Source: Balanoglossus misakiensis
Lineage: Eukaryota > Animalia > Hemichordata
Assembly: GCA_040954595.2 (NCBI GenBank)
Contig: CM082579.2
Coordinates: 5,693,625 to 5,757,624, forward strand
Reading direction: 5' to 3'
DNA length: 64,000 nt
In this document: one piece after another, positions 3,241 to 27,500 of the stretch
How positions within the stretch are numbered: the stretch's first letter is position 1
How the letters are laid out: each line of letters starts with the position of its first letter
Made by a program: the position numbers and the translations under genes
The notes under the pieces: generated by a model
The model's database searches: none
Told to the model about the DNA's origin: nothing
What the model saw: only the letters and a program-made list of their open reading frames with translations

Positions 3241-3268
3241 GTTGCCATGGTAACAGTTGCTAGGAAAC
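3241..3268. promoter_or_regulatory. Tandem RFX X-box-like motifs (gttgccatggtaac-a-gttgctaggaaac)
   Basis: Both fit the GTNRCC/YN(0-3)RGYAAC-type palindrome. Function is untested. Confidence 0.4.
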
Positions 3269-3472
3269 CAAAGTATGGAAGAGTTAGATGATGAAGTTGC
3301 CTTTTCTACGCAACTTGGTGAGCTCATAAGCAGCCTTCTAGTATTTCTGGATATAATTTTTTTTTTCATGTCAACTAACACTACTGCTTTTAATACCGTC
3401 CTTTATACACTGTTCTACGACCTGATATCTTTTGTGATTCTTTTTTTTTTCTCTCTCTCTGAAAGTGTCTCA

Positions 3473-3592
3473 TTAACCATCGGCTCGGATGGTTTGGTCC
3501 TTCTTCGTCTTGTTGTTCTGGTTGCGTTTGATGCTACCAAATTTACCGAAGAGACTGTGTACGCTGTTCATGATAGGGCCCAGACTCCAGTT
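3473..3592 (-). CDS. APBB2: Last coding exon ([39 protein letters not shown])
   Basis: Acceptor ttttttgtgtgtatcacag|AAC, then 39 codons and TAA TGA. An amphipathic stretch followed by a basic tail resembles Fe65 C-termini. Confidence 0.85.
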   Translation of the reverse strand, partial: NWSLGPIMNSVHSLFGKFGSIKRNQNNKTKKDQTIRADG

Positions 3593-6500
3593 CTGTGATA
3601 CACACAAAAAATACAAAAACACAACATGGATTACAGACAAACGATTATGATGTATGATCAGATTTTGGTAACAGTAACAACAGCAAAAATATCCTCAGCT
3701 CAATGTTATTTGGAAGAGCTCATCTTTCCTTACCTTATTGTCCTGGCCGTGTGATTTGTTAGAATTGATGGGTTTTGAGTCCAGACACTTCTGGTATCTC
3801 AGTTTACACGCAGCTTCTATGGTTTTGGCTAGGCCGCCAGCCGAGTGCTCACAATGGAAAACGTGACAACAGAATTGACTTTTACCAGCACACATGATGT
3901 AGGCAAATTGTCTAGAAAGGAGACACAACAGGAAAAGTGGTTAGTTTGGTAGCTTTTCACAAGTGAACTTCAACACTTTTAATTAATGACACAAAGATAT
4001 TTTTAATTAATGACTGTCCTAGATCAGAGATTGCAAAGTGTTTCTTTTACCTGATGTCTGGTCCAATCCCAAGGAATGATAAGAACCTGACTCTGTGCTC
4101 TGCTAAAACTTCTTTTGTCTGTCAAAAAAACACACACAAAAACAGGTCAGTGAAAACAAATTCCAATCGGTGATGTGATGATTCTAATACGAGCATGTGC
4201 ATACCATGATAGTTGTGTACTTTTGCATTCATGGGAGGCCAAATAAATAGGTGTGGCACTCATTTATTATGGGAATATGTAAATTAGATACCTTGATATC
4301 AGTGACAGTGATGGTTGACGTGGCCACTTCCACCCTGCACAGGGCAAACTCTTCTAAAGGCTTCGTTGCCAGTTTAGCTATGGAGGCATTAAGCGTGTCC
4401 ATTCCTGGAAAAAGAAATCACAGACAAAAAGCATAAATCAGATTAACAATCAAACAAAAATGAAGAGATGAACCACTGGCGCATACAGTTAAAACCACAT
4501 ACACAAGTGACTGAATGCACAAAATGATTATCCTCTATTAGAAAAGTCAGACGAGCGTAAATGTGAGGTGTAACTCAGTTGTATACATTGAAAAGTTAAT
4601 TTTAGGGTCAAACGAAGCCATCAACATTACACAGCCAACATATAATGGGAATGATACGTTCCCCAACCGACGAAAGTCACAGATGCAATCATGTGGTCAG
4701 GATATTCAAACTGTAATCAGGGTATGGCCAAATGAGCAAGGAGAACTACGAAGACTCCCTGCTAATGACAAATTTAATCAGCAGCGATGGACTGATCAGC
4801 TATAAATCAGTCGAGGTAGCCTAATAGCTGTATCACTCCTGGACATCAATTGACGTCACTGAGAAAAAAATACATCAGACTCTACTGGGGTCTAGTCAGT
4901 TGGTTAAAAGCTAATAACACTTCATCCAAATGATTGCGAGAGAAACCACAAATACTGTACTGTCAAGTACAACCAGATTCTTTTTCTACATCTCGTCTCG
5001 TTTCCCTGTAAACTGACTGAAGACAATCAGTGACATTGAAATCACCTTGCCACAGAAGCGATTACGAAACACAGTCACATAGCCAGGCCATGCAACATTG
5101 ATCACGCACACACACTCATACCCAGGGTATGCAACACTAATTACATGCTACATGTAACTGCCTGAAGGATTCAAGCCCTCATGTTTCATTAATGAACCAT
5201 CGCATCAGATGTGTATAGGACAGGGCCCCAAATGACCAACCCAAGTTTCACCCCCACATTCCATCCCTGGATATAATGTAGGTTTAACCAGGTGAACACA
5301 AAATAAAAACAATAAAGCATGCATAGTGAAATGTAGAAGGAGATAAAACACTAAATATTCCCTTCACATTTCTTCCCCAAACCCACAGACGGACGTGGCA
5401 AACGACACGTCTACCTTTATCTCTACAAACTAATGAACTTTAAATATGCATAAGCAAGATCTCATCACAGCTGAGTAAGTGTTTGCCGTTTCCAGCCCGC
5501 ATTTACTAACATGATTTAGGAGCGCAGCACAGAGAGATATTGATTTGATAAGGAGCGATGTACAGGTAATGATGACAGCTTTTACTGACAAACACGAAAG
5601 AATTACAGTTGAATCGAGTGTGACACAACACAATATTCATTGTTAATTTAACGCTAAATATTCGGTATGCTCCAGGAATATGTTAATTTATGAACGTCTG
5701 TTTATATAACTATGCATTTATTCATACAAATCAACAGCCATTTTGGTGCATCACCTCGGTGGAAAATTGCTGACCGGAGCCGGTCAAAACCAGAACAGAC
5801 TAGAATGGAGAAGAGCAGTTAACGTTATCAACTCACCATTTGCCCTGTTGACGTCGGTGCCGCCGACATAATACGCTCTGAACACGGTGGTGGGTTCGGC
5901 TTTGGGTGTTGGGAAGTCCACGACTGAAGAGAGAAAAATCTTTTGTAAGACAGGTTGCAGGTACACGGCGGCCTGGGAGCAGTACGCTGCATTGAGGTTT
6001 TCCCGCTCGGGGCTATAAATGCAGTTTTGGTTCAGATCCGCGCGGTTGGCCTGCTGCAACGTCGTCGAACAGTGTGTCAAAAAGGGCTCGACTCTTGCCA
6101 TAGCCAGACACTGCGCTCTCACTGCAGACGGAGAACCGTCGGACGCTCACGTTGAATACTAATCAAGGTCATTTGCGGAGAGGGACTGAAATTTACGGTC
6201 AGTACATGACAGTCGCACATAATTACGGGCTCCGGGCTACGACGCGACCTGCACTGACTGAGAAGAAGCAACGAGAGACGCTTTCTTGAATCGCTAATGA
6301 GCTGCTTTTAGGAGAAGAAAAAAAAATAGAGAGACTATAAAACATCTTGCAGCATCAGCGCAAATCTCTTCGGCACAACCACCATGGCAACAGGCGGTAA
6401 TAAATGTCAGACAACCGCATCCAGACAGTAATCTACAAACACTTGTCATCAATTCTTCATAATTTTATGCCTCAGATTAAATGAAGGAGGCACCATATGA

Positions 6501-9500
6501 TGACAGCACTGATACAAAATGCAAGCGACTGAATTTTTTATGAAGCGGAATAAAATCAAAGACATTTTTTCTTTCACATTTAATTAAGAAAATTGACCAG
6601 TCTGATGAGATGAGTAAAAACCCAAACACATGATGCTCTAATGAAATGTTTTGATACCATAGAAAGAACGCATTCCCTGTTTTGTTTGGTGACATTAAAG
6701 AAAAATAGAGGACAAATTGACAGATGGGCTTTTCAGAAGGGGGCATTGAGGACACGAGATAGCCACATTAAAGTGGGACTACTAATTCCCCAGGAGAGGC
6801 CTGCCAATGCATGTCTTTGCTGCAGATTGTCTGCGCGCAGGATAATTATTCGCAGAGGTGATAACATTCAGGTGACTTCACACGTAGGCTGAACACTACT
6901 TTCGCTTCCATTCCTCTCACTCAGACACCTTCGCAAAATTTGTCGCGTCAGCTGATGTATATTGAGCGCTGTTTGTTGCAAGAGAAATGATGGGGGTGTG
7001 GGCACTTCTATGAGGTGTGCATTGAAAGAAAAATGGACGTGGTGGAGCGGTGTTGTATAGTGCCCTCTACTGGCCAAAATCACCGCAAAAGTGTGCGTCA
7101 CAGGACACTTTGCACTTCAGTTCAATGGACCCAGGTGGTGAGCGAAATCAAAAATGTTCACAATGCAACATTTAGAATGATTATTAAATCATTATGCGTA
7201 TGTACATGTACATGTATGTCTGCGTGTGTGTGTGTGTGTGTGTGCACGTGTGCTTGTATGTGCATGCATACATTCATGTCTGTCTGCCGCAGCCTGCCTA
7301 TGGGGGCTGCTGAGCTCTGGTGATTTTTGCATGTACCAGTGTGTGAATGACAATGAGACCTGGCACTACTTATTAACAAAACACCCGCCATTTCCAAATC
7401 AGCAACTGTGTAAAACCTCTTGACATCGTCGCCGGCAAACTGTACCATCTTGCCACACACACACACTTTAACACTTTATGAAAACTGACACGTCAAAAAA
7501 TTCAATTATTTTCTTCATTTGGAAGTTTGTCCCAGCTAATCTGCGGTCGCTATGCTCTGTCACAGGCTGTCACAGCGCCTAATGAAATCTATCACTTATC
7601 TGCCGGGCACTTCATACTTTTCAACTGACAAACTGGAGGCGAAAAGATGAATTTTAGCATCCGTGTCGGTTCTGTCGCGCACAGAGAGCAAGCGGCACCC
7701 ACTAAAAACTGATCCAATAAATTAAGGCTCTAACGATCAATTATGCTTGGAAAACAAAACGTGCAGAAATCTGACAGTTGCAGATTTCTTTTCAATTTTT
7801 TGTTCAATCATAGACTGTTGGAGGAGAATATTAGAAGAGCATTGCAATCCTTGTGACAAATCTGGAAATTGTCATTCATGGAATGTTGGATGAAATGATT
7901 TGACGGCTCAGATGAAATGTCACCATCTGATGCTCTATTTCCAAATTTTTATCAGGTCTATCATTCATAACTGCTGAACATACATGTTCTTTCTATGACT
8001 GTGTTGTTTCTGTGTTCATGTGTGTTACAGTCATTTCACTTTGCACTATAAATCCCCCAGACTGCGCTAATCGGGGTCAGATAGCTATATGCTTTGTTGT
8101 TATTAGTGTTCGCACAGTGGATTATTCCAAGATATGACAAACTTAATCCCGTGCGCAGGTATGCCTAGTGCCATGACTGGACTTAATTTGTGGTTTTACC
8201 AAGTACCGATACATGACTTGTGCAAATCCATATCAAGTGTTCCTATTCAGGTTTGACTCATGCTTTTGTGGGAAAAAACATTGATATTCTATGCTAGTGA
8301 GTTGCTTCAATAAAACTTGGTGGGAGAATGATGCACCTACCTTGAGTTGGTAAAGATTCAATCTTCTCTAAATCTCTCTTGGTGGTTGCAGGACGCGCCG
8401 ACTGCGGGATATGGGTGGTATGGGGATGCACGACCTGCCCCTGCGTTACCATGGAAATAGCATTGGTTTTCCTCCTCTCTGTCATGACTTTGGAGCAGAT
8501 CTCGTGGAGTGCGTTCGCAATAGCCTTGGCAGGGATGTCGCATCGGAAAACATGACATTTGAATTTTGTGGTTCCTTTGTCTTTGGCGACGTAGGCAAAA
8601 TCCCTGAAAGTTGGCGGGAAGAAAAAGAAAGAAAGCTAAGACCGGAAGTTTTGCATTTCAAGAACACTGCAGCTAATATAAAATGACAAAACATATTGCC
8701 AGAACTGACTCCAACTGGTTTGTTGGTGTAAAAGGCGTGTCCAGTCTATCGAGAGTGTATGACTGATCACAAAACTGAGAGAGCAGTAGTCAACTCACAG
8801 TATACACCAAACAGCCAGGAACACAAAAACCAAACTTATGACATGCAGCGCAAGCAGTTTCATGACATTTGCACAGCAATACAAAACCCTCACTGTCAAT
8901 TCTACAAGAATCTAAGAACCAGACAGTCTGTAAAAAATGTGACGAAGTAGACGATCTTCAACAAATTGTCAGTGTTTTCTTTGCTTTCCTGAATATTAAC
9001 ACCAAACACAGATTTAAGTGGCACATGCAGCCATGGTCATTTATTCACTACAGACGACGAGATCCACTCTTTAACAATGGATCATTCTCCACGGCTTCTG
9101 AGCAGAATTCCCATCAGGATTAGGCTCTCATTTTTTTTCCTCTCTCCAAAATTGGTGTCAAATATTTCTTTTTATCTTTCGATATAGCTAAAGGGTAATG
9201 ATGAGGCGATCAAGAGAAATTGTCGTTTGGCTGGTCGCTTGGTTGCCAAAATGATTAAATGGTGATAAGGCAAATAGACGGCATAAGGGCCGTTCAACTG
9301 GGAATTTGCGAGAGGTTTTTTCCCCCGCTGAAGAAAGGTTGTAAATCGACACCAGGAAGGAAGATGGATAAACGTGAAAGACTTGTGATCACGATGAAAG
9401 GTGCCGAAAAGGTCACAAAGCCTTAGCCTTGGGGGTGGATATAGTCTGCGCTGAACAATTACCCAGTCGGGGGTGCTTCACCAGATTTCAACGAGGAAAC

Positions 9501-12500
9501 CAAACGCGCGCAAAGTTGCTAAGCCGCTGACAGCAAACACTCTCCATTGATTGATATCATCCCACGGAATAATGTCGATTTTCAGACCTGACGTCTAGGA
9601 AAAAAGTGGCCACTTTAGAGAGTCAACATCTAATACTTCAGTAGACTCCCTCCCCCCCCCCCCCCCACCAAACTAAAATGTACGGATGTTACATATTACA
9701 CTGGTAATTTCAAGATAGGGCAACGTACCAATATAGTGCCCAATTTCACTCAATTCACTGCACTGTGTGTTTTGCACATCACCCGGAGGCTGAAATGCAA
9801 ATGAACCCTCATTACTTATTCGCGTCTCCCCCGCATTTCCTTCCTCGTCGCAACTCTACAGCCTCCAATAACCAATCTGTCTGCATCTCTTATTGAACAT
9901 GCTCCTCCCTCACACACAGACATCCACAAGCAACCAGATGACAGGGCAAATAGGGCACAAATATCTTGACCCAAATGTTACGAATTACTGCGCGATATAT
10001 TGAGCAAGACGACAGACAGTCTTGGCACTGTCTAGACATATTTAGAAGGAGCTGAACACACAGAGAACTTAGCCAGGGGCACCTCGATCTGCATAAATAA
10101 TCCAATTTTATAACACAGCTATGATGTACCATGACCTCCGTACAATTTGTCGAGATGTCTATCGGCGGGCATTGGCACGGCTAGATAAAATACTAATCAA
10201 ATAATGTAACTGCAGGCTGAGCTTTATATCCCGACCACCCTTCATTACCTGAAGAGAATTCCAATCCCCCCAACTCCCAATTATACCACAGTTTAGGTCT
10301 CGAACAATTCCAAGTGCTTGTCCCTGGTGAAAATGAAACTGGAACTTTATACAGAGTGTTGGCTTATCTAGGCTAAACATTAGGAATTCCAGTCATAATG
10401 AAACAGCGCTGCGTTTCCTGTTCTTGGAATTTTTTATCGGTGTCACGCCAATTCATTTGTTACACTGGAGATGCATGTCTTATCTCTGTGTGTGTACCCC
10501 ATGAGATCTAAATTTCAAATGAGTAAAGACTCTAGTCGACATATTCATCTCATCCATCTAACAAGACACATCGCTTCTTGCACTCTGTATTGCTGATACT
10601 CCCACTCACAAACCTGTTTTTTTGATAAATTGCAAATAACCTCGCCCGCTTGAAAATAAGCATTAATTCACTTGCCAAAAACACATAAAACCAGGGGCAG
10701 GGTTTAATGGCGATCTAACCCTAAACGCCAAATCTAGAACTTTTTTACAACTCTTGTGAAATATCGATTGGATCGTGAGAATCTGCGACGCAGCCAATTG
10801 GTGTCCTGAAATCACCTTTCTGCTACAGACACACCCAAGTAAATCCCCCCTCAACTTGCAAGAGTAAATTCCCACCGCACCGCCGTCTGCAAATTAATTT
10901 GTGAGCACCACAGGATATGGCCAATTTGCACCTCAGCTGCTGGGACAGCACAAGGATTGATGGAAAAGCCGGCCATTGGAGGCTCTGGCGGTAAGACCCT
11001 ATCCATCATAATCACGGAAATTACTGACAAAACTGGTGTTGATGGATTGATAGGGGTACATGCATGGGGGAAAAGTCTATACGACATTTACAGGGTATCA
11101 TCTGTATTCTCGTTCATCTTGGGATGGTCCTATGGGAGGTACAATACTGAAATTTGCTTCTTTAAACATAATCTTCAACTCTGACAGACTTTGGGGGGAC
11201 AATTGATTTCACCTCTCTGTTTCATTCACCTTTCGCTCACTGGCATTTGATGTTGTTATTCTGAAGTTCCCTGACATACAGGGATGATGCATTGATAGCA
11301 AGAGTTACGTCAGAGGAAATGGGGAAAAATCCACTTGGTACGGCTGTTTTATGATAAACGGTGAAGGGTTCAAAAGTTCGGGAAGCGAGAGCAAGGAGTC
11401 AAGACAAATCCAACTGTTTGATGACGTCACAACTGACGAAAATGGATGATGGAGAAGTCACGCTGAAACCCCACTTTTTTATCAGTGGGACACATTCTCT
11501 GCTAGAGGTGAACAAAAAAAGAAGAAAGGAGATCTTGACGGATCAGCCAGACTGTGAGGGCATTTAACACCAGACAAAATCAACCGAGGCATCCGTTTAC
11601 TTGATTCAGATTAAAAGCACGGTCCATGATTGCGAAAGGACACGGGTTGGGAAAAAAGAGAGAGAGACAAGTGAGAGAATTCTCCTTTTTTGAAAATGTT
11701 AATCTGTCTCTGGGGATGTGCTTGCCATTTCAAAGTATGGCTTGTAACTGCACTACAGACATCTGTTGGAGAATTCTGATTCGGCGACATTACACCATAT
11801 CTATTCACGGCCACAGCTGGGGCCGGCAAAGGTTTTAGAGACACCACGAAAAACAACTTCCTGGTTGAAATAATCGCGCTCAATATTTATCAAGGGATTA
11901 AACTATTTATATCACATCAAAATAACCATCTGCATGAGCTAATATGCAATTCATGAAAATTATAAACCAATACATTAGGATCAATTAGGGCCCACCACAA
12001 TGGCACCTGAGTTAGTTTTGATGGCAGTGATGAATGGACAGCCAGAAGCTGTCGGAGCTTGTTGCTGAACCTCCGGTGCTAATGGATCAGTTTTCAAGGC
12101 ATCATATCTGTGGCGTCCATCTTAATTGTGACAAAACTCTCGGTAATTCCCGGCAAATATGGTTTGACAGCAAGACCCGGTCTTGACAGAACTCCTTTTG
12201 ACATCTCTGACGGTTACAACTAAAGTTGATAAATGCACGACAGTGGCAACAGCTGCACTGATCAAGCCACAAATAATCCAATTAAATCTACATTTGAACT
12301 TTGAGATTAATACGAGCGTTTCTTGATAACGCGCGATATATTTCATTGTTATGCAAACGTTAACAAGATCTGTTAAAAATAAAAACCGTTATCTGGACAC
12401 TCCTCTCACACAAGAGCCCTCTTGACATGATGACTCCATAACTAGTAGATCAGATAATTTTATGGACGTCGATAACAGAGCCATGGTAATATCTGAGATT

Positions 12501-15500
12501 AAGTACCCTGATCACCCGAGTCAAAGTTTCACTGACAGTGGCAACAGCTAGTATATCATTCCACTTTTATTACATGCAAAACTACCATGGCTTGACTTTC
12601 TGGGAATGAACACAAATTTCCTGTGTCATCAGAGGCTCAGTGAGGACATAGTTGTACATTTGGTGCCACACACACATTTCAGACGACTGCTTGCACTCAC
12701 TGAAGAGTGAAAATGAAAACGAAAAGACAGTGACATGATCTACGTGTATACAAATACAGATACATAAAACATGCTACAAACATCCAAATGAGATCATATT
12801 CAAATTGGTTTACCTTTCCCTGTGTTATACATGACGGCAGGAGGAAGAAGAAGGAGAAGGGATAGAAAGATGACGTGTTGTTAGTATACAGCTAGGAGAC
12901 AAAACAGTGACCGTTATTCAGACTGTGTGCTCGACTTCAGTTGGTGCAATGAAGTCCAGATCACATGACACGACAAAGGTTTCATGATCACCTTGGCTTG
13001 GGATGAACACATGTATTAAAGAGGGAACTACAAGAATTTAGCACAGACACAGTATGATTACATGATGTTCCTTTACATAGCTCATGTTTGTACAGTTTCA
13101 AATAAAAAATTCTGATTCCTTGCAACAGAAACACTCATACTCTCTTCTCTCATACTAACCATCACACAAATTCCATTTCTGTCACCCTAAAAAATCAACA
13201 ATCAGTACATTTATTAAGAACTATACTTCAGAATTCTTGTGTAATTATTTGGACTGCGAACACAGTCATATGTTGAGGGTGTGGACAGTATGAATGCAGA
13301 TCCACGAGATCATATACTGTCCTGAAGCCAACAAGAAAGATTGCTTCAATTGGTTTGGGCACAGATCCTTAATCAACAAGTACCAATTTCCTGAGTCGAA
13401 AGTAAATTTATCCCGGTAAGACATAAAACTAGTTATTACCATTCAGAATTTTGATGCACTATATAATTTTACATTGTGCGTTCAATGCTTAGGGATGCCT
13501 CTTAACGGCCATGGCAATAGCTTTATTTCTTACCTTATATGGTAACACATGCACCCAACCTTCTGAATATGTACTAGCAAATTTTATGGCCAAACGAAAG
13601 CTCCTGACTATGTATTAGGCTCTTGGCCAATCGGAGTATGCATCAGTTTTGCATAAATCAATAATTACTGATGATACAAAATTTACTATGTTGGAAAATG
13701 AGGCAGTTGGAATAGGCCTTTTTGCCTTTCAATCTTCGGAAAGTTTTCGTATGGAATAAAAAAAATAGATTTAAACTGTCCCTGTCATGAGACTATACTT
13801 ATCAAACTAAAATGTCAACCTTTAATATCATCTTGTTGCAGGACAAATTTGCTGCCTCCCTCGCTGATGAAAATTGTCACCTTCTGGGAGAAGTACTCCT
13901 AGTATCAAACACAGAGACATTTCGCAAGCACCATCTAACAATTCGCTTTTCATCCCTCCCCAATTCCATTTCATTAGTGCTCTGAATGCGCTTTCAAAGG
14001 AGTTTGGTGTTGAACAACAACAATAAAAGAAAGGTTGGAATTGTACTCGGGATGACTATGGATTGCTTCTTGCAGAAGAAATGAATGCTATCTGATTAAC
14101 ACCACGTAATTGTGTGAACTCCCTACTGGGGCTGGAACAGTGAGAATGTTATCTACTGCTGACAGTCTGGACAGGACTTCATACATATTCCACCTGCCTA
14201 CTGGGACATAGCTACATGTATGTACGGCCAGTATTTTTTTGTTTAATTTCCTGAACCTGAGCCTCAACCTACCTACTTGTTCTTATCCACAATCGGCAAC
14301 ATCGTGAATTTTTTTATCTTACCTCCAGTCGATAGCTAAAGATTAGGTCAAACAGCTTTGCAATCCAAGTTTCATTATGTTCAAAAGTACACCATACCTT
14401 TTATTATTAGGTACAGATACTAGGTACAGAGTACTGAATGATTTTAATATTTTGCAATGGGCAACTCTATAATCTACTTTGGTGAATTAAAATCTATCCA
14501 AATCTACCTGTGTGTGTATATATACTTGTGTTAATACCACAAACATAGCTCCTCAAAGAGGAACGTGCCATACTGGTTCCATTTTCAATTTGTCTCTTTG
14601 TCACAAATTTAAAGCCCAATGGCAAACTAAGAAGTTTGACAACGTGATTGGGCAGCAAGCATTCATGCCTGCAAAACACCAAGGAAACTCCAACCCTCAG
14701 AGCCCTTCCTTTATGTTTTTGTTTCATTTGATTGGTTTTTTACAACGGCAGAAAAATCACGCTTTCAGAGTCATCTCAATGCAAAGACTCCACTAATGAA
14801 GGCTTATAGGCGATAATGGAATTTGAATTGGAGCGTCATAAAAAGGGGATATCAGGACTGGTGAAAGGAACTCAAATATTACACTACGAGTTAATAATTT
14901 CCAGTTGGTGCATTTATAGTAATATCTTGGGAGGAGAAACCCACAATAATTCCATGCAGTTTCGCATAAGAAATGTATACTGACACTTTAAATACTTATA
15001 ACTACCCTTTCTCTTTGCGGCAAATCTCTTGGTTCAAACACACAAACCCCAGAGTGGACAGTTTTCAAATCTGTCTGTCACACAGAATGCGACATTTTTT
15101 TTCTTTTCTCTTAATAAAGCCTACATGGCGGTGCAGAAAACGCAGTGAATTTATTGCGTCAAGTTCCAGACACTGCGGATGTGCTGGGATTGTTAAGTGG
15201 GCACATGTGACAACCCAAATGAATTCCCTCGTTTATTCTGCCTCAGCTCAAAAGATACAGAACACGTAATTACCAATCTTATTCCGTGACTTGACCGGAA
15301 TGGCAATTTCGCGGAATTGCCAAAACACTATTTTTTTCTCTCCAAGAGACCTGTGGGCGTAGGAATCCTAACAGCAAATGTGGCACTCTCTCTGTTCTGC
15401 ATTAAATTTTTACTGCGGCTACACCTGGTGCGTGTTATTCACTTTTCCGTCGCTGATTAATGCGGCTTAATATTACATCTTTAAGTCAGACTCGCGAGGT

Positions 15501-18500
15501 GGCGATCTGGTTGTTACGGCAACTGCATCTTACGTAATAGCAAGATAATACACCATCACATCTGGAATTACCCTATTGCACATTTTAAGTAGATTCAATT
15601 ATGTCTAATGCTCTCTCTCACATCTGATGTAAACACTGATTTACAAAAAAATTGCTTGAATGTACAAATAAACATCCAAAAAAGAACACGCAATATGGCC
15701 TCACACTGGGAACTGCCGTTCGCCGGAATCATGTCATGAAAAGATGTCCCAGTTTACATCACGCAAGCATAACTCTCTCAGACAATCAAATGTGATTTTC
15801 GTCATACAATCGCATCTATTTTCGCAAACCGGTTCATTGAAAGATGCCGTGATTGGAAGATGTCTGGCTGTGAAAGAACTGCACAGCCTTATTACAAGAA
15901 CACATACATGTAGCGAGCATGACAACATACTGTGTCATGGAACTGTACTATACATGAAAGGATGGAAATGTACAGACACATGAACGAAGAATTTCAATTA
16001 CACAGGCAGGGATGGACTGACAAAACAAACCAAGCATTAAATTCTTTTCTCACCTTCCGTTGTCTCTACCAACGCCCCACACTCTGATTTCACACACGGG
16101 TTGTGAGTTGAGTACGCTGCTGTCTGACACATCCACTAACTTCAAAAAGTCTTCCTCAAGTACCATGTACATATCTTTGCCCTGGATAAAGCACGCGGAA
16201 AAACAAATATCAACTACTCATGAAAACAAATTTTTCTGTAATAATATTGCTCTTATTTTGTCATTTTCATCCCTCAAAATTATAGACTAATTATCTTTCC
16301 GTCACTTTTTCCATTACAAAGAATCGCAAAATACTTACCTCTCCCCAAATACCAGCTGTGTCTCTAATGTCGTTTTTTCTATACGATAGTTGTCTGATGC
16401 AATTATTTACAGCTACGCTACTCTTTCCTGGGGACAGATCCACTTCGTCCATTTCAACCCATCCCAACGAACGCACGTGGAATCGGATAGCCTGCCACGG
16501 AAAAACGTAAAACAATACATGATCAGTAGACTTTTCCCAACATTTGTAACACTGTGTGGTACTCATACAATTTGAACGTCGGCTCCTAGGTCAGTTGAAA
16601 AACAAAACACGCTACAATTTCAAAATGTCAAAAAATTGTCTCTCGGCAGTACCTTTCTTCCGGCATGACTGGGGCTGTGGTGTGGTTTGCCAGACGGTAT
16701 GTTGAGCGAGGCGTATCTGAGAGTGGATTCCTGGAAATCCTTGAGACTGGAGTCTGGATCTGAGTTTGTGCCTCCACCAGGCTGGCCAACATGGAGATGA
16801 GAATAGTTCTGTAAAGTGGCAGACAAAAACAGTAATAGTTATTTTCCACACGAGTAAAAGTGTTGCAATACAAAGCAGAATACAATCGGTTTCAATAAAA
16901 CATGTACTTATCTATGATAGTTACACTGTGTTGTAAGTTGTTTTGTGTGGTTTGATAGAGTTGGCCATATTCTGGTTGCAACCAATTTATCATTTTTGGT
17001 TCAATTTATTTATTTGTATGTTCCCTGTAAATGTGGAGAACTGGCTGATAATTGCCCTTCGGTAAGCATGTAGTCCATTTTTCATATTTGATATTTGAAT
17101 GTATGCTTCATTTATTCTTAGCATCTTGTACCAACAAATTCTTTAATAACCTAGTCCTTTTTTTGCCCCAGGACCCAAACACAACAGAGCCAAAATATCA
17201 CCTGGTGGGGAAAAATCTGTGGCGACACGAGACAATCTAAATTTAAATCTTACGAAATCAAATCAATTTGCGATTCCATTCATGAAGACAAACTCATCAT
17301 CTACCATGAACCGTCGGGTCATTTCACAATCTTCATTTGGGTGAGCTGTCTTATTATCCACGCCAGTCCTATCATTTCACATCATTAATATTCATGCACC
17401 AAGTTAATTACATATGGAGAAGACTTTAAATATTCAGCGATTCAAAGTGAGTAGGGGGATATATTCAACGAGGCCATGCCCCACATATCGTTTGTCAAAG
17501 TACTGACACAGTAGCTACAAAAGTTCTTACTGCCCTAAACTTGCAGTGCACCCATCAATATATTTTTCTCAGAAAAAATATCTTGGTGTATCAGATTGTT
17601 ATATCTCGTTCACAAACGTCATGTTTAGAGTCAATTTCAGCAGTTAAAAGTTCGGTAACGATAATCTCCTGATACATGTATGTTCTGGCATGTGCCCATA
17701 CCGACTGCAAAATACACACACATACATGTACACCATATATTTTCTTTTTCTGAAGACATCTGATCAACCGCACACTCAACTCTGATATTTGTTCTCTGCC
17801 AAGGCTCAGAAGGAGCAGGGTATGACTGATTGGTATGCAGCCCCAGCGAGTCCAGAGACGATAAGACAATATGCAGTGGACCAACACTACACACAAAATG
17901 CAGCAGCTTGTAAAATGTCATTTGAACAGCAGCAGCTGCGCTGAATACTGATTCCGCACTCCAACGTGCGAGCAAAAAAGAAACTTTCGTAGCCGGGGTT
18001 TTGAGCCCTGACTAATGATGTGAATAGCAAACAACCGCGTGTCACTCACGTCTCGTGAAAGACAAGGTTTGCGTCTCACTCGCCTTTAAAGCGCCTCATC
18101 AGCCAAGCACTTCACTTTTAACTGTTTGTATTAGTAGTTACGTTTTCTTTTTTCAAAAATTGAGTCTCTGACAGGTAAATATATGACAGCTGGGCAGACA
18201 TTTCATTGTGTGGCCTTCTAGCTCTGCCGGATCGTTTTATAAAGAGCTCTGGTGTGCGTGTGAAGTGTAAGCTGGTTCACAGCATCCACTCTGCCCAGCT
18301 ATGCGTGTGCGTCTGCACCGCAGCGGGCAGCCACAGGAAATTGGTGGTACCAGCATTCAAGTGTGATAGAACCTGCCCCAGCTCAGGTGAAGATTTCAGA
18401 CACAGGCACTGGCAGAATATGATATTCTTCAGTGAAGCCTGTGGAATTGACTGTAACCGTGCCAACCTGGCACTATGGATGCAAAGATCGTACATGTATG

Positions 18501-21500
18501 TTTGCAAATTCTTTCCTGAACACACTGCATGTGAAATCAATGTCCCTGGCAGGTGACTGGCAAAATCATTTCAAGGGAATTTCTTTATTGCGTGAATGAA
18601 CCAGATGCATATTTTACCAGTGAGGCATTTTGACATCATCTTTGGAATTCTCTCTTTCTCTCTCTCTCAAGGAATGTCTCTGTCGGTCTAGTCAGGCATG
18701 AATGAAATAAATCGATTTTCAAGGTTGCTGTCACCATTCTGCATTTCAGGCCGCTGCTGTCTTCATTTAAGATAGCCTAGTGTTTTGCAAGATTTTATTT
18801 CAGGCATTTGCGTTTTGTGTCATTGGGACCCCCAGTGCAGATGAGTGTAACAGATATCTCACTGTCCCAGATTTGAAATTTTTTGCTTGCTGGTCATTAT
18901 GTATCAATATCTGATTGTCAAACACTCTATTCTTCCAGATTGATCCTTGCCACTTCGGTTGAACTGTGACAGTTATTTAAGTTTATACTTTCCTCAAATC
19001 TGTCTCATTCTGCTGGATAAGCTCTGATCCAACACAGGCTGATCTACATGGACACACAATACCAGCTGTGACCCAGACCGCTCTTGAACTCAAGACATGT
19101 GATTGCAACGGCAGCCGTGGAGACAAGGTTTACAGGATATACAGCTTGGATAGCCCAGATTTACACAGGGAATCCACCGGGGGGAAGTCTGTCCCGACGC
19201 TGTTTATTCTCGCATCAATCACGACCAGGTTGCCGCGCGCCGCTCGGGAGAACTCCCCAAACTCAAACTGACAACCCTAATCCAATAAGAGGTTCATTTT
19301 TAAAACAACACACAGGCATGCACCATACACGCACACAGCCTGCGCTGCGACAGAGACGTTGGCACACACGCCTCGCTGCCCGGGTTAATTCCATCGCGGT
19401 CCCAGCATTAAAGTTTGGCGCCTCGCAAAATTGGCAAAATCGAGCACGCGTTCCCGCCGTCTGCCAGGGGATTTCCGTAGCTTTTCCCTCTGACATCACC
19501 ACTCCGGATTCCAACGCAGCAGGAGCCGGACCAATTGACTGGGAAAGCCAAAATCGAATAAGTCTTGGCGAATCCCCCGGGTCAATATCTGAAGGACCCT
19601 AAGCGCTGTACTTCTGTCATAATTTTAAAATATGGTTATTCTATTCTGCAGCGTCTAAGGACTCTCAATTGAGGAAGCAGATCAATTGCCTGAGATCATT
19701 ACAGCCGCACTGATACTAGACTATTGCCTCCCAATTCATGTTTATCTTTACATATTTTGTAACAGAGATTGTCGAGATTTACATCTCTCTCTTCACATCT
19801 AAACAAACTAAAAAAAGGGACTGAGTCCATACTTTGTTCGGTGAATTTAGGGCACGATAATTCCATACCCCTCAAACAATTATGATGAGGTACGTGAAGC
19901 GGAACTAAAATGTGATCAATATTCCACCGTCGTATATACCCGATCTTTATTCCATGTCAGTAAATGGAACTTAACCACGCTAAGTACCGTCATTTAAGGA
20001 AAACATCAGATGAAAACTAAACATCTCTCTCGCCCCTCTCAGGAAAAAAAATTAAAACGTGGATTTTTCTGTTGACGGATAATGAGAGTGTGAAGGCTAT
20101 AATTTGTTAATGGATCGCCTGGCAATAACACTGGAAGTGGATTATGGCCTGAGCTTGTTAGAGGAACTGGAGAAGTAAAATGTGAATTGACTATCAATTC
20201 CGTCAGACAGTCTGTGTCTACAGAGACATTGGCAAACACTGGAGAATAAAGTCGTGCTGCTCTAGAAAATCTACACTGTCCCTGGTGCACGTTCATGAGA
20301 ATGGCACGGTTGGCTTTTGTGCAAACTTTCGTCATTTTCCCCCAAAGAAAACTTCTTGAGAAATTTTCCATGTTGTCTGATAATCAAAATGTGCTGAATT
20401 AGTCATATCTGAGAACATTTATATATGTTATGCATTGTTTGTATGAATGTACATGTATTTCTCTGATGACCAATAATTCAATGTAATTCAGTTTTTCGGG
20501 GAACAACAAAATAAATACCAGAACCAAAAAGAATATCAAAGGTGAGAGGATAAAATGCCATACATCCTTCAGCAGCACAGACCTGAACAAAGTATTTTTT
20601 TTAACATACAGGAATGCAGGATTACATTTTGCTATTCCCATATGTTACATTCACTGTACGGAACGGCAGGATTATCAGACTCTCGAGTTTTCAATACAGT
20701 TCTGGAAATACTCTTAACCAGTGCAGGAATTTTTATGATGCTTTCCACAGGTAAATCATGAAGCGCATCCAACTGACACTCTTGAGAGGTCATGCCGGTG
20801 CCATGGGAGGTCACACCCAGTCAATGCGTATGATTCATGGCCATGCTGCAAGTACGCATAAATATGCATATGTACACGGTCGGTTTTCAATCAAATGGAA
20901 ATCAGTCGCATATCCTTAACGGGCCCGATGCTTCGCAAGATTCTAACTGAAGACAGAGAGACCTGTATCAGTCACTAAGAACGGTAACCTTTGCAGTCTT
21001 ATCGACTTTCCACTGAGCATTCACAGGCAATTAAAGTATTGCCCGAGTACGCTTAAAAATCGAGGGGACTCTTTCGTCGAATCAATGGCAAACGCTTGCA
21101 GACAACGCGCGAGTGAAAGTCTGGCAAATTTTTGATGCGTACGTTCCACCACTTGATATACTGACCACTTTGCGTGAATTGTTGGAAATAATCTGCTTTT
21201 AATACACCTATCTGACATACATGTACGTACAAAGGATTCATGGGAGAAGCATGCATGCACATGCATGCATACACACACAGACACACAGACACAAGAAAAT
21301 AATCATCATGCTTTGCTTGCAAACACAATATAATATAGACAGGACTTTGGGACAAAAAAACTGCTATGCCCTATAGATACATCAATATTGCAGAAATATG
21401 CGAGTCGAAACAGCAAGCAGCCCAAGGACCCAATCAGACGTACGTAATGATAACACCACTGAGGTACCCACTGCTTTGGGGATTCCACTGCTCTATGCTT

Positions 21501-24500
21501 TCAATTCCTGGAACTGTACCTACTTGTCCACATGAATCATGCGTGTACACTCGAGTTTAATCAAGAAACTCTCTTTCCGGGCAGAATCTCGCTCAACAAA
21601 ATTTACAATAATTCAACAACCGTGTACCTGCAGGAATTGACAACCCTCATTCGGCTATATTCCATTTCATCGCATGCCGAGGTGTCAATTTCAAATCATT
21701 TTTCCCCAGATAATGGTGGAATTTGGAAACTACCGCAAGCTTGTTATTACTCTGATAGGTGAAGTGAAAAAGCCACCTGCTTCCAAACAGTGAGAGGTTT
21801 AATACACAACATAACTATAAGCAAATGAAGAGCTTACAATAGAAACACAATATCTCTTCCAAAAACCCATTGATTTGTTGATTAAAGCAACCAACTGAGG
21901 GCCACAAACAGATACATGTATGTCCATGCTAAGAATTATTTCCTGAACATTTCTTTCCTCTGTTGGGCAGAGCCTACTGACGATCCAAACATCCAGGAGT
22001 AAATTTAACCTCTATCAAACGTGTACATGTACATATTCAGTCGTACATATTTAATCTGGCATTTCAATACTGTGTCTTGGCATTGCTGAGATAATTAAAC
22101 ATATGTACGATGAAATTGTCATTCTTATACCTATGGGGAAAATATGTATTTTTCCTCTGGAGAGAACTGAATGCCTATATATCTGACCCCCCTAAAAGCA
22201 TTTCCCTGGGTTTTTATAGCAAACATGTAATCAGAATTCCAGAGGCCAGATTGAACTCTAGTTAGTATTCGCATCTACCCTTCTACATGCTGGGGCCGAG
22301 ATTAAATCAATTGCTATCGACTGAAAATGTCAGGAGTTAAAGCAATCACATGAAGGTAGAATACGTAATCCTGTTAAAACAAGTCACACAATTCATCTAG
22401 CCCAGTAATCACACAGGGACAAGTACTCTGTCTGAATATGGAAATTGATCGTCTTGGCTTTATGGTTCTGTTTCACATTTTGCTTTTCTCTGAATTTCTT
22501 CCCTTTTAGTGGTGTCTGGTCTGGAGTCGGACCGGATCAGCAAAGTGGTGGAATTTCTGATAGGCTAATTATTTTTGTCATAAATTTTCTGCGCACAGAG
22601 GGCTTGCATGTTCACCAACAACAAGAACTCTCCCAGCTAACAACTTTCATCTTTAAACAGAGCATGTCTTTTGGGAGCTACATGTACTGATCACATTTCT
22701 GTGTTTCCGTGATGAATATGATAGCAAGGGATTAGCGTGACAGGACTGGGTATAAACAATGTTCATTATGAACTAACCAGCTATTCTGAAGACCATTTGC
22801 CTTCCCCCATCTCTACCTTTCGTACCTTAACAGTCAGGTGACCATTTTCTGTGAATTCACTGAGTCATAAACATCACAACTTCTCCAACCTGCTTTATTT
22901 TTCTTTCTTTTTTTTGTTTTTGTCGAGGTTGGGATGACTCAGCTTGTTGCTATATGAATCAGCCCATTCAAAATTCATACCGTTAGGTGTACTCCAGTCT
23001 TTTACATTGATTGGCAAATTTCCTTGTTAACGATGATGTACACACACTCTGTTTTCGTCCTTCTCCCCGTGGGCCACCCAAAGCAAACACAGTGAACCAT
23101 TTCATCAGAGCCATCGCTTAGCTAACATGTACAAGCCATTACCTAGATACACAGCAAACAGAGTCGCTGGCTAAACTCTCGAATCACTGAATTAAATCCT
23201 TGAATTGTCGTCAACAAAGTTTGAAATACTTCTGCCAGCCATGATAAGTATCAACATTTAATTAAAATGCAAATGTTCGGATATTGCAAGTTCCTCAATG
23301 GGAGGCAACTCATAGGATTTCATATCTTTAAAATCAAATCACCAGTACATGTACACAGTTTCATAATCCTCTGAATTTCTCAGAACGATATTTTGTTCAT
23401 GTAACAAGACTTTGAAAATAACTTTCCCAAGCCCCCATTCACTCACTTCATAGCAGAGACCATTTTCCATGATAGGTCAGAAACATACATGTCCATATGA
23501 ACCATAGGCTAACAGAGTTTGATATTTCTGTAATGGTCACATGATTAAAAAGTTAATAAATGTCACTTGCAGAAGCGAAAATTCAATTTATAGAAGATGG
23601 AAGATATGACAACACCAGTGGGGTCTCGGATGACGTGGGCATGTTAAGACAGTCTGCGCCGTAAAACTTGTTAAAAATCATAAATGCCTGGCCCTTCCTG
23701 TGCGCTGATACTCGCAAGACATCGCTAATGCAGTTTCTTGCATGTCATGAATATCAATGAAGCCACTTCAAGTGGTGCATCTCATCCTGTCCAGACTGTT
23801 CTGATGTCTCGCGTTTGTTTTGAGCAGGGGCTGTACTTGTTGGAAAAAATCCACTGTTTGGGCTGTCATGCTTCTATATTAAATAAGGTTTAGATTTCAT
23901 TTTAATCTATCAAATATTGTCAAGTGACAGATTTTTACAAAATTTCTAGCTCCTCAGTGGGAGAAAAATCCCTTCTTTTGTAAGATGCTGTTAACTGCGT
24001 TTTCTGTCTATTCTTTCAACTTTGGTAACTTTTCCCTACTATTACTTGACTTATTAATAGATACCGTTCATTTGTTCTGTTCATTAAGTCAATATTCCGC
24101 ACACACAAAATTAACACCGGTTTAATTTTTTAATGCGAGTCTGATTGGTTTCCTTCTCCTGATACAATACTTCTAAGACAAACAAATTAAAAGCTGTCAA
24201 ATGGTGACTCACACCTATCAAGTTCAATATTGTCTGCTCTCCGGTACGTATTCAGTTAAAATGATGTTTCTATTTTTAGAGTTAAGCCGTAAACATGTCT
24301 GAGGTTGAAAGTGGTCACCGCGCAAGGTCACTGAGGAAGCAATAACAGGTCCTGTCCAATCAAGCCTCCTGACGTTTATCTCCATCAATCTCTAAATTCA
24401 GACGATGAAAAATCAGTAATCTTCAGGCTAACTCCAGAGGGGGAATGTAATATAACAGAAGGAACTTAAATTCTGCCAATTTTGTCTTAAGTTGGCAGCT

Positions 24501-27500
24501 ATGACTCAAAAAGGAAATGAAATGGTAAAAAAAAAGTAATGAGACATTAACCGTTGATGAATCTTAGTTCGTTAGCTAATTGGCGTTTTTTTTTTTTTGA
24601 GGCTGGAATTTTTGCACCAGTTGGGTAAACTGAATTAGTTCATCACAGATAATTGATTGCATTAAATTCTCCGTTTGAACTTTCAGACAGCCGCAATAGC
24701 CCATCACCCAAAATGCGGCTGATTTTCATGCGTTATTTCCTGATTGTGTTCTTCGGGAGTGGACCACCCCTGCGACAATTTCATGTGTGTTTAAACTCAC
24801 TAAATCGCCAATATCCATCTGATTGTCTCTCCAATATAACCGTCCCCCCTCTAAAACTCAATGTAAATGCATTGATCAATCACACTGAAGTTAATAACAT
24901 GCCACACTGTTTGATACCAATTCTAGATCAGCATCCCTCCATCGCTCACTCTGTCAACCAATTTAACCCGTCAGTCAATCCTCGGGTAATCGCCGCGCCT
25001 GTTAAAAATGAGGACTTCGGCATGAAATCGTCCGAGAGTGCACAATGAAAATGACATGACAGCTTTATCAGGCGGTGAAGATTAAGGCGATTTCTGATTC
25101 TCATCGACACAATCGCCAAACATGTGCAAGCCCCTGTCCACAGCCATCAGATAAGAAACCTGCAACAAAATCCCATCATGTCAGCTTGCGACATCGGGAT
25201 GTCTTGTGAATGTTTTCTGACAAAGACCCCTTTCTGACGAAAAACCTAAGTCCCACTGAAGATTACACTCCGCTGCTTCTGAGTCACAAAAGAGTTGCTG
25301 GTAGCTATCTGAAAATCCATCTACTTAAAAACTCACTAGTAACGTGCAGTAAAACCAATAAAGTCGCATCGAACGCAATCATCCGGTAGCGCACTTTACA
25401 CGGATAAAATGACCTTGGAAGAACAGAATACAGCGTGCGTAATGTATCTACCAACAGAAGATGAACACTGATCTATATCATTTGCCTTTGGAGTGTGACA
25501 ATTGTTTTGAAATTAAAAGTCCGCATGGAAAAAAGGGATGACTGGATCTCTCCCTCTGTGGATTACATGAAAGCTGAAGGGCACTGTTTTTGGCTTCACA
25601 ATGAAGATGCAACTGCGCAAGTTTGATATCATTACTCAATTAATTTCCAACAGAGCAAAATTTATCCCTCGGGGGAATCTGCCAAAGGCATGGATATTAA
25701 CGACATTGATGTTTGCACAGGAGACTTCAAAGGGCATACAATTTTGAAAATGAGAATACTCTGCCACTTTCACATTCTGTCCATCAGATGATCAATGATG
25801 CGCTGATCACATGAACACAAGTACAGAAGGTTGGGATGATGATTTGCAAATGTTTTGTTGATTGGCAGATTATCTGCATTTCCAGGTTCAATCTATACAA
25901 TGTGTAAAGTGCAATGCTATTGCTGACATTTGAACTTTCGGCCAGACTAAAAGTCAAGTGTCTTCCAAGAACATTGCAAGTTATATGCATATAGGCTGTG
26001 GACAAGCTCGGCATGTCAACATGAAATGTGTCAGAATGAAAGCAGGATTCTGGGAAATGTGTCAATGCAGAAGAATAGTACCACAGCCACTCCCTGAATG
26101 AACACATCCCCTGAACAACACCAGGACATGCACTTCCCAGATATTTGCCGAGCGTAATAATGGCGGCGGAGGACAAGACACACTCTTGCAATTTACCTGG
26201 GCTTTTTAATCATTCTGGTATCATCAGGGAAGAGGCTGATATCATTAGAGCTAAAAAGCACCGCAGGAAAACAGATTAGGCCACAGTGAAGGCAATCAAA
26301 TTTCCATGTTTGCGGCTGTCACTCACAGCGGGCCAGCCACTTACACCCGAATTGGCTACAAAATGCCAGTTAATATCACACAAGACTAAAGCCACCATCT
26401 CAGTGTACACACAGGGAGCAATAAATCCTGTTTGTATTCTACCTGATGTGTGTATTCAACTTCCATTTTTTTGTGCTTAACCATTCACGGTTCAGCGATC
26501 CAGCGTACAATTTCATGTAACAGCCATTTAGTGTTTGCCAAGTGCTCATTATTAAATTTGAGAAACTTCAATTTTGACCTTGGCAAGAACCTGGCCCTTG
26601 ACCTTAATCTGACAGAAATCGTTCAGCCTGCAAATAACACAATTTGTTCATGAAGCATTTCAGGGAGATTTTCTCGGCAAAACACAAACCAACACACTCC
26701 TGAATTCAGTTGAATTTTAAATCAGAATCACAGAAGATGACAGATTTTGGCTTAATATTCAAGGAAAGGGATTCGTAGAAATGCATGAATATAATACAAC
26801 GAAGACATAAATATAGACAAGCACACTCTCAGAGAGCAAGAAAGGTGAGGCGGGGGTAGATGTATTATTTATACAACTGCCCATGCATAATGTAGGAGTG
26901 TCTCATTTCAGCTGACAATACATGGCTACCGTGCTTTTAATGCCAATTATCTGGGGAATATGACTCCAAATTTGTTGACCGATTATCTGCAGGCATTCGC
27001 CAATCAATAGAAATGGTCAATGGAAGCACAGTTCCACAGGGTATACGAGACACTTCTCTGGAACAGCGAATCCATGGTTGTTTCAAGTAATTCATTATAC
27101 GCTCAAACTGCAAAGTCCAAATACATCACAACACTTGCCAGCTACTCTACGAAGCAACACATGAACATCACGTTTTGACATTTTACACGAACATTTCACA
27201 AAACACACCACAGTTAATGAAGAAATATGCAACCTTGCCTTTAACCCTGTATGTTCGTTCAACCCTAATTGAAATTTATTGGGTTGAACGTGTTTATTAC
27301 ACAGAGTTCATTTTCACAAACTATCACGACAAGAGCACACATTACAACTGATCGATGGTTATAGCTAAGCCTCACCTGTCCAGTGGACCATCGTTTTGGA
27401 ACAGCGGCAAGATTTTTGGGTTTGGTCTGCGGAACTGGCGACGGCGGACTCCACTGAGTTGTACCACTAGGCACGTGCCAGTAATAGGTTCCGGAACTGT

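What the first reader, a model, noticed from the sequence alone, without database searches (positions are those of the whole stretch)
12814..12819. Hidden 6-nt microexon in PTB1 equivalent to the neuron-specific vertebrate Fe65 Arg-Glu microexon
Seen: the intron between ...GRDNG-AG and G-DFAY... (8604-16053) is 7.45 kb, whereas the upstream PTB1 introns are only about 160 bp. In its middle lies cag|GGAAAG|gtaaac, which is frame-preserving and yields GRDNGRERDFAY. Established: vertebrate APBB1 has a 6-nt neural microexon at this position in PTB1 that modulates partner binding (e.g. KAT5/Tip60). Inference: this apparently invertebrate gene keeps the same two-residue switch, implying deep ancestry of the microexon. 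Standard annotation would probably miss it.
Basis: partly seen in the sequence, partly recalled or inferred. Interest (0 to 1): 0.85.

Follow-up and report, generated by a model that had tools for sequence, protein, structure and literature searches.

The report
Ancient six-base Fe65 microexon, acorn worm
An acorn-worm Fe65/APBB adaptor gene holds, inside a 7.45-kb intron, six bases between splice signals that likely form the nerve-cell mini-exon adding Arg-Glu to the protein; the same mini-exon is already reported as ancestral to bilaterian animals, so this is an expected copy, not a discovery.

Summary
In detail: cag|GGAAAG|gtaaac lies at 12814-12819 (minus strand) in intron 8604-16053 of an APBB/Fe65 gene and turns GRDNGRDFAY into GRDNGRERDFAY. 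The gene is from an acorn worm close to Ptychodera flava (839 of 894 aligned residues identical). Upstream of the site are a TACTAAC branch point, a 33-of-35 pyrimidine tract, a TGC and a 70-nt AG-free zone, the layout of SRRM3/4 (eMIC) target microexons; 18 of 1000 intron shuffles give an RE-coding site and 1 of 1000 that layout. The identical RE insert is in database isoforms of Saccoglossus, echinoderms, insects, spiders, horseshoe crab, crab and vertebrates, and in the human PTB1 crystal construct. A 2026 preprint (10.64898/2026.09.05.749416) names the 6-nt APBB1/2/3 microexon as one of two neural exons ancestral to bilaterians, so the deep ancestry is already in print. This scan also found the exon earlier in another genome (e1-7145913). 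Inclusion, neuron specificity and any effect on Tip60 binding in this animal were not tested: no RNA reads were available. Very likely real, already known; interest low.

The parts
12814..12819 (-). 6-nt microexon GGAAAG (phase 2/2), net insertion of Arg-Glu in PTB1
   Evidence: sequence and translation; same insert in homologues
12820..12822 (-). acceptor CAG; no other AG for 70 nt upstream; in-frame TAA two codons upstream of the exon's first codon
12808..12813 (-). donor GTAAAC (AAG|GTAAAC; +5 is A, not the consensus G)
12837..12839 (-). TGC (UGC) motif at -20, the motif linked to SRRM3/4 (eMIC) response
   Evidence: motif role from papers
12839..12873 (-). polypyrimidine tract, 33 of 35 bases C/T, set back from the AG (-54 to -20)
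12880..12886 (-). TACTAAC branch-point consensus; predicted branch A at 12881 (-62)
8604..16053 (-). host intron 5, 7450 nt
16054..16181 (-). upstream exon 5 (PTB1, ends ...GRDNG-AG)
8341..8603 (-). downstream exon 6 (G-DFAY..., end of PTB1 and linker)
3473..40757 (-). whole APBB/Fe65 coding span, 11 constitutive coding exons (40709-40757, 27376-28766, 16653-16808, 16339-16491, 16054-16181, 8341-8603, 5837-5923, 4292-4404, 4051-4118, 3734-3911, 3473-3592), 901 aa without the microexon; WW-PTB1-PTB2

Best explanation
The six bases are likely a real cassette microexon of the acorn-worm APBB/Fe65 gene, inferred to be the orthologue of vertebrate Fe65 mini-exon 9, likely skipped by default and likely included in neurons, where it would add Arg-Glu to a loop of PTB1 and is predicted to tune partner binding. 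Shown by sequence: the site, its frame, and the set-back branch point, pyrimidine tract, UGC and AG-free zone. Shown by homologues: the same RE insert at the same place in isoform pairs from Saccoglossus to insects and man. Predicted: the insert lies in the loop between the strands IRVWGV and DFAYVAK (model of the Saccoglossus protein). Inferred from known systems: the short exon and the distant 3' signals make it poorly recognised, and a neural eMIC-domain isoform of Srrm234 acting through the UGC promotes inclusion. Least certain: that the affected partner is KAT5/Tip60 as in mammals.
For: Site and frame. Branch point at -62, 33/35 pyrimidines, TGC at -20, AG-free zone 70 nt; none of the gene's 10 ordinary acceptors has this combination, and the site is the only minus-strand hit of a 3-27-nt scan of the window. 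The layout matches published eMIC targets (PMC8797185; 10.1101/2024.09.17.613571). RE-coding site in 18 of 1000 shuffles. Isoform pairs that differ only by RE in Asterias rubens, Acanthaster, Anneissia and Strongylocentrotus; RE in one of two Saccoglossus models. Human APBB1 PTB1 (3d8d) reads GRDSGRERDFAY without a gap at this place. RE in insects, spiders, Limulus, Scylla, Culex. Preprint: the 6-nt APBB1/2/3 exon is one of two neural exons inferred as bilaterian-ancestral. Loop position in the model: strands 626-631 and 640-646 of P0123, RE at 637-638, pLDDT 71 for 631-640.
Against: No transcript evidence from this species. The closest annotated relatives lack the RE form in the sequences seen: P. 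flava 0 of 2, Glandiceps 0 of 2, and the newer Saccoglossus model also lacks it. The donor has a non-consensus +5. My layout thresholds were set after seeing the site, and the same scan gives one unrelated plus-strand hit (3257-3272). No RE form was seen in the three mollusc, one rotifer, one priapulid, one centipede, three nematode, two nematomorph or five Apostichopus sequences examined. In zebrafish none of 18 microexon deletions, apbb1 among them, gave gross morphological or size defects (PMC12626424), so the function may be subtle.
Confidence: 0.8

Rival explanations
1. The microexon is real and spliced but is not neuron-restricted in this animal (low-level or broad inclusion, or another tissue), so the sequence is conserved and the regulation has drifted.
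For: Hemichordates are not among the 20 species of the preprint. Conservation of the microexon programme drops fast outside vertebrates (PMC8797185). No tissue data here.
Against: The intact eMIC-type 3' layout. The preprint's rule required neural specificity in vertebrates, insects, amphioxus or sea urchin, and centipede or octopus. Absence from P. flava and Glandiceps models fits rare, tissue-limited inclusion.
Confidence: 0.12
2. The site is a silent relic or a chance look-alike that is not spliced.
For: YAG-N6-GT is common (15 in this intron); RE is missing from all four P. flava and Glandiceps sequences; no reads were seen.
Against: It encodes exactly the RE kept across bilaterians, in the one intron where it must lie (18 of 1000 shuffles), with a perfect branch point and long pyrimidine tract (1 of 1000); a Saccoglossus model has it.
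Confidence: 0.05
3. The RE microexon arose more than once at this intron (convergence), so it would not show common ancestry.
For: The preprint reports many neural exons arising independently at equivalent positions. Presence in database isoforms is patchy (no named lophotrochozoan or nematode with RE in my sample), and two arthropod models read RL or RLF here.
Against: Same length and residues in vertebrates, a hemichordate, sea urchins, sea stars, a crinoid, chelicerates, a crustacean and insects; the preprint's exon-orthology analysis calls it ancestral. Absence from gene models is expected for a 6-nt tissue-limited exon.
Confidence: 0.03

Closest known systems
Vertebrate APBB1/Fe65 mini-exon 9 (6 nt; E462-R463) and the matching APBB2 exon
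   Same: Length, position in PTB1 and residues: GRDSGRERDFAY in human APBB1 (3d8d), GRDNGRERDFAY in human and mouse APBB2 isoforms. Isoforms lacking it are mainly non-neuronal (PMC8304848); inclusion enhances Kat5/Tip60 binding (review PMC8911335 citing Irimia 2014).
   Different: Here it sits in a single invertebrate APBB gene; tissue pattern and partner effect are untested.
Bilaterian-ancestral neural APBB1/2/3 microexon (bioRxiv 10.64898/2026.09.05.749416)
   Same: The same 6-nt exon, inferred ancestral from 20 species.
   Different: That species list has amphioxus and sea urchin but no hemichordate; this adds one taxon. I read text and legends only, not Extended Data Fig. 7 or the supplementary datasets.
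Saccoglossus kowalevskii APBB model UniRef100_A0ABM0MY55 (P0123)
   Same: Hemichordate protein with [17 protein letters not shown], identical to the inclusion product here across the junction.
   Different: Another family of acorn worm; the newer model XP_077861866.1 lacks RE.
SRRM3/4 (eMIC, Srrm234)-dependent neural microexons
   Same: Long AG-exclusion zone, UGC near the 3' site, long set-back pyrimidine tract, strong CUAAY branch point.
   Different: eMIC dependence itself was not tested; the Srrm234 gene of this animal could not be looked up.

Membership tests
APBB/Fe65 family | WW domain followed by two PTB/PID domains | tested here: met
   WW in window exon 2, PID in exon 6; closest relative P0121 has WW and two PID stretches, and the window encodes it along its length
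APBB/Fe65 family | Best matches are APBB/Fe65 proteins | tested here: met
   839 of 894 aligned residues identical to P. flava XP_070552994
APBB RE microexon (Fe65 mini-exon 9 orthologues) | 6 nt, frame-preserving, flanked by AG and GT | tested here: met
APBB RE microexon (Fe65 mini-exon 9 orthologues) | Inserts RE at the W-G-V-G-x4-R^DFAY position of PTB1 | tested here: met
APBB RE microexon (Fe65 mini-exon 9 orthologues) | Same intron position and flanks conserved at DNA level in relatives | not testable with these tools
   no genome held for the window and no animal genomes to search; only protein isoforms were compared
APBB RE microexon (Fe65 mini-exon 9 orthologues) | Included in mRNA, alternatively | not testable with these tools
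   no RNA holder listed; both forms are annotated in relatives
eMIC/SRRM3-4-dependent neural microexons | Long AG-free zone, set-back branch point and pyrimidine tract, UGC between branch point and AG | tested here: met
   AG-free zone 70 nt, branch A at -62, 33/35 pyrimidines, TGC at -20
eMIC/SRRM3-4-dependent neural microexons | Neuron-specific inclusion | not testable with these tools
   needs tissue RNA
eMIC/SRRM3-4-dependent neural microexons | Inclusion depends on an eMIC protein | not testable with these tools
   needs minigene or knockdown

The most novel reading that the evidence does not exclude
The whole switch, not just the six bases, has been kept since the bilaterian ancestor: a neural eMIC protein includes the exon in the acorn worm's nerve net and cords, and the RE loop strengthens the same Fe65-Tip60 contact as in mammals. 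The junction would then be a splice-level neuron marker in a phylum not covered by the published comparison.
Probability: 0.35. Interest if true: 0.35.

Novelty: already known. Interest (0 to 1): 0.17.

Why it matters
It fills the hemichordate gap for one of only two neural microexons inferred to date from the bilaterian ancestor, gives a natural eMIC-type 3' splice site for minigene work, and points to an isoform absent from the P. flava and Glandiceps protein models seen here. It does not change the known picture: the exon, its ancestry and its mammalian function are already described.

Tried and rejected
RNA runs for window 8300-16700: no RNA holder listed, which is no evidence either way; no reads were laid. 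Torres-Mendez 2019 (PubMed 30833759) is not held, so I could not check whether it already lists this exon. Paper searches with no hit: Fe65+microexon+invertebrate; Fe65+PTB1+neuron-specific+exon 9. microexon+hemichordate gave 3 papers, seen as listings only and none evidently on this exon. Intron size as evidence: rejected, two larger introns in the gene hold no candidate. TACTAAC alone as evidence: rejected, 8 in the window against 6.0 expected. A 5'-extended exon like the amphioxus models: rejected, an in-frame TAA lies just upstream. Other AG-N(3-27)-GT sites in the intron: none passes the layout scan. Search for RE outside deuterostomes and arthropods: none among the few named lophotrochozoan, nematode, priapulid, nematomorph or ctenophore sequences; only 10 of the 139 new representatives were looked up for names and no cnidarian was identified. 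No family tree and no complex prediction were run. Earlier notes near this place: none.

Full report
Observation. On the minus strand the window reads cag|GGAAAG|gtaaac with the six bases at 12814-12819. The upstream exon (16054-16181) ends in GGA AG and the downstream exon (8341-8603) begins G GAT, so skipping gives GRDNGRDFAY and inclusion gives GRDNGRERDFAY, both open through the two exons. The host intron is 7450 nt and the two introns before it are 157 and 161 nt.

The gene. The exon after the intron matches APBB/Fe65 proteins, best Ptychodera flava (97%), then Glandiceps (89%) and Saccoglossus (86%). Using the P. flava protein as a guide I built 11 coding exons from 40757 to 3473 with canonical splice sites and a single terminal stop; the product is identical to P. 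flava XP_070552994 at 839 of 894 aligned positions, to Glandiceps at 751 of 889, to Saccoglossus at 580 of 731. The animal is therefore an acorn worm close to P. flava (inference from similarity; no tree was built). WW and PID domains are confirmed by Pfam and by the human Fe65 PTB1 structure 3d8d.

More than chance? The bare pattern YAG-N6-GT is not: 15 in the intron, mean 15.1 in 1000 dinucleotide shuffles. A site that also encodes R-E-R across the junctions appears in 18 of 1000 shuffles. Over the whole window that pattern occurs once, against 0.21 expected, with 18 of 100 shuffles reaching one, so its place matters, not its rarity. A filter for this layout passes 1 of 1000 shuffles and, run over all 3-27-nt candidates of the window, returns this site alone on the gene's strand plus one plus-strand hit at 3257-3272. 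I chose the thresholds after seeing the site, so the figure is indicative. None of the 10 ordinary acceptors of the gene combines these features. Intron size is weak evidence, since introns 1 and 2 are 11,942 and 10,567 nt and hold no candidate.

Relatives. Of 120 proteins, 50 have RE at this place, 60 lack it, 3 have another insert and 7 lack the motif. Isoform pairs that differ only by RE are annotated for Asterias rubens, Acanthaster planci, Anneissia japonica and Strongylocentrotus purpuratus; Lytechinus variegatus has both forms too, and one of two Saccoglossus models has RE. RE forms are also present in bees, ants, wasps, a damselfly, a planthopper and spiders, beetles and sawflies (11 of 92 new hits), Limulus (3 of 4 sequences), Scylla and Culex. 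105 of 106 new, mostly vertebrate APBB2 hits have it (the query held RE, so this is biased). Over all 565 proteins fetched: 199 RE, 264 without, 14 other, 88 without the motif; these are redundant database entries, not independent events. Against: neither of 2 P. flava nor of 2 Glandiceps sequences has RE, nor 5 Apostichopus sequences, nor the single sequences seen for three molluscs, a rotifer, a priapulid, a centipede, three nematodes and the ctenophore Mnemiopsis. Among amphioxus sequences most lack it and two carry a 17-residue insert ending in RE. Gene models show presence, not absence.

Where the residues fall. An AlphaFold2 model of the Saccoglossus RE isoform (48-sequence alignment; mean pLDDT 53 because of the long acidic N-terminal part, 87-91 in most PTB1 blocks) puts residues 632-639 (GRDNGRER) in a loop between strands 626-631 and 640-646, pLDDT 71. 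From my own knowledge of PTB folds, the first of these strands borders the peptide-binding groove; that is recalled, not tested. A surface loop fits an insert that tunes binding without disturbing the fold.

[quoted passage not shown] Its species list has no hemichordate. PMC8304848 (passages) describes Fe65 mini-exon 9, E462-R463, with the skipped forms mainly non-neuronal. PMC8911335 and PMC4387716 (passages) report, citing Irimia 2014 which I did not read, that inclusion enhances binding to Kat5/Tip60 and less to APP. PMC8797185 and 10.1101/2024.09.17.613571 (passages) give the eMIC target layout: long AG-exclusion zone, UGC near the 3' site, long pyrimidine tract, strong CUAAY branch point. 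PMC12626424 (passages and section 6) lists apbb1 among conserved srrm3/4-regulated zebrafish microexons and found no gross defects for 18 deletions. I found no paper on this exon in hemichordates, but the library lacks most subscription papers, Torres-Mendez 2019 among them.

Mechanism. Shown: sequence, frame, splice layout, matching isoforms in relatives. Predicted: loop position. Inferred: default skipping because the exon is too short to be defined and its 3' signals lie far from the AG; inclusion where a neural eMIC-bearing Srrm234 isoform acts through the UGC; two added charges in the PTB1 loop alter partner binding. I put about 0.95 on the exon being real, 0.8 on neural, eMIC-type inclusion, and well under that on Tip60 being the partner affected. 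Rivals are broad or drifted regulation (0.12), a silent look-alike (0.05) and convergence (0.03).

What could not be done. No genome and no RNA run were available, so inclusion, tissue pattern and DNA-level conservation of the intron remain open.

Verdict. A good catch from raw sequence and very likely a real exon, but it is the expected hemichordate copy of a microexon whose bilaterian ancestry is in print and whose RE isoform is already in databases for another acorn worm. Already known; interest 0.17.

Noticed in passing
proteins P0019 (Branchiostoma lanceolatum XP_066285889.1) and P0163 (B. floridae XP_035680979.1): Both models carry a 17-residue insert (RDALSICLFVAPYLCRE) at this junction. 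It ends in the microexon's RE and may be the microexon extended 45 nt into its upstream intron, by an alternative acceptor or an annotation artefact; the same residues in two species suggest a conserved flank.
   Followed up: partly
proteins P0084 (Larinioides), P0068 (Xylocopa), P0415, P0409, P0411: Other short inserts at the same junction (GRLR, RLFR, GRDRD, GSIR, GRCQ): variant microexons, paralogue-specific forms or mispredicted borders.
   Followed up: no
window 40709-40757 (-): The first coding exon ends ...DHEVQVI; P. flava and Glandiceps isoforms X1 and X2 differ by exactly these 7 residues, which suggests a conserved alternative donor 21 nt upstream.
   Followed up: partly
protein P0481 (Mnemiopsis leidyi KAL5270925.1): A ctenophore protein matches the Fe65 query over WW-to-PTB1 range (E 2e-28) with the short, RE-less loop, so the gene family may predate bilaterians.
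   Followed up: partly
[quoted passage not shown]
   Followed up: no
window 3257-3272 (+): A 16-nt AG...GT site passing the same layout filter on the opposite strand, just past the stop codon; not frame-preserving and probably chance.
   Followed up: no
window 27376-28766 (-): Large 1391-nt exon encoding a long Asp/Glu-rich, predicted disordered region and the WW domain; holds most of the window's tandem repeats (28243-28303).
   Followed up: partly
window 40758-64000: No other gene was evident from ORFs of 150 aa or more; P. flava X1 has three accessions for one protein, so this may hold 5' untranslated exons and long introns of the same gene.
   Followed up: no
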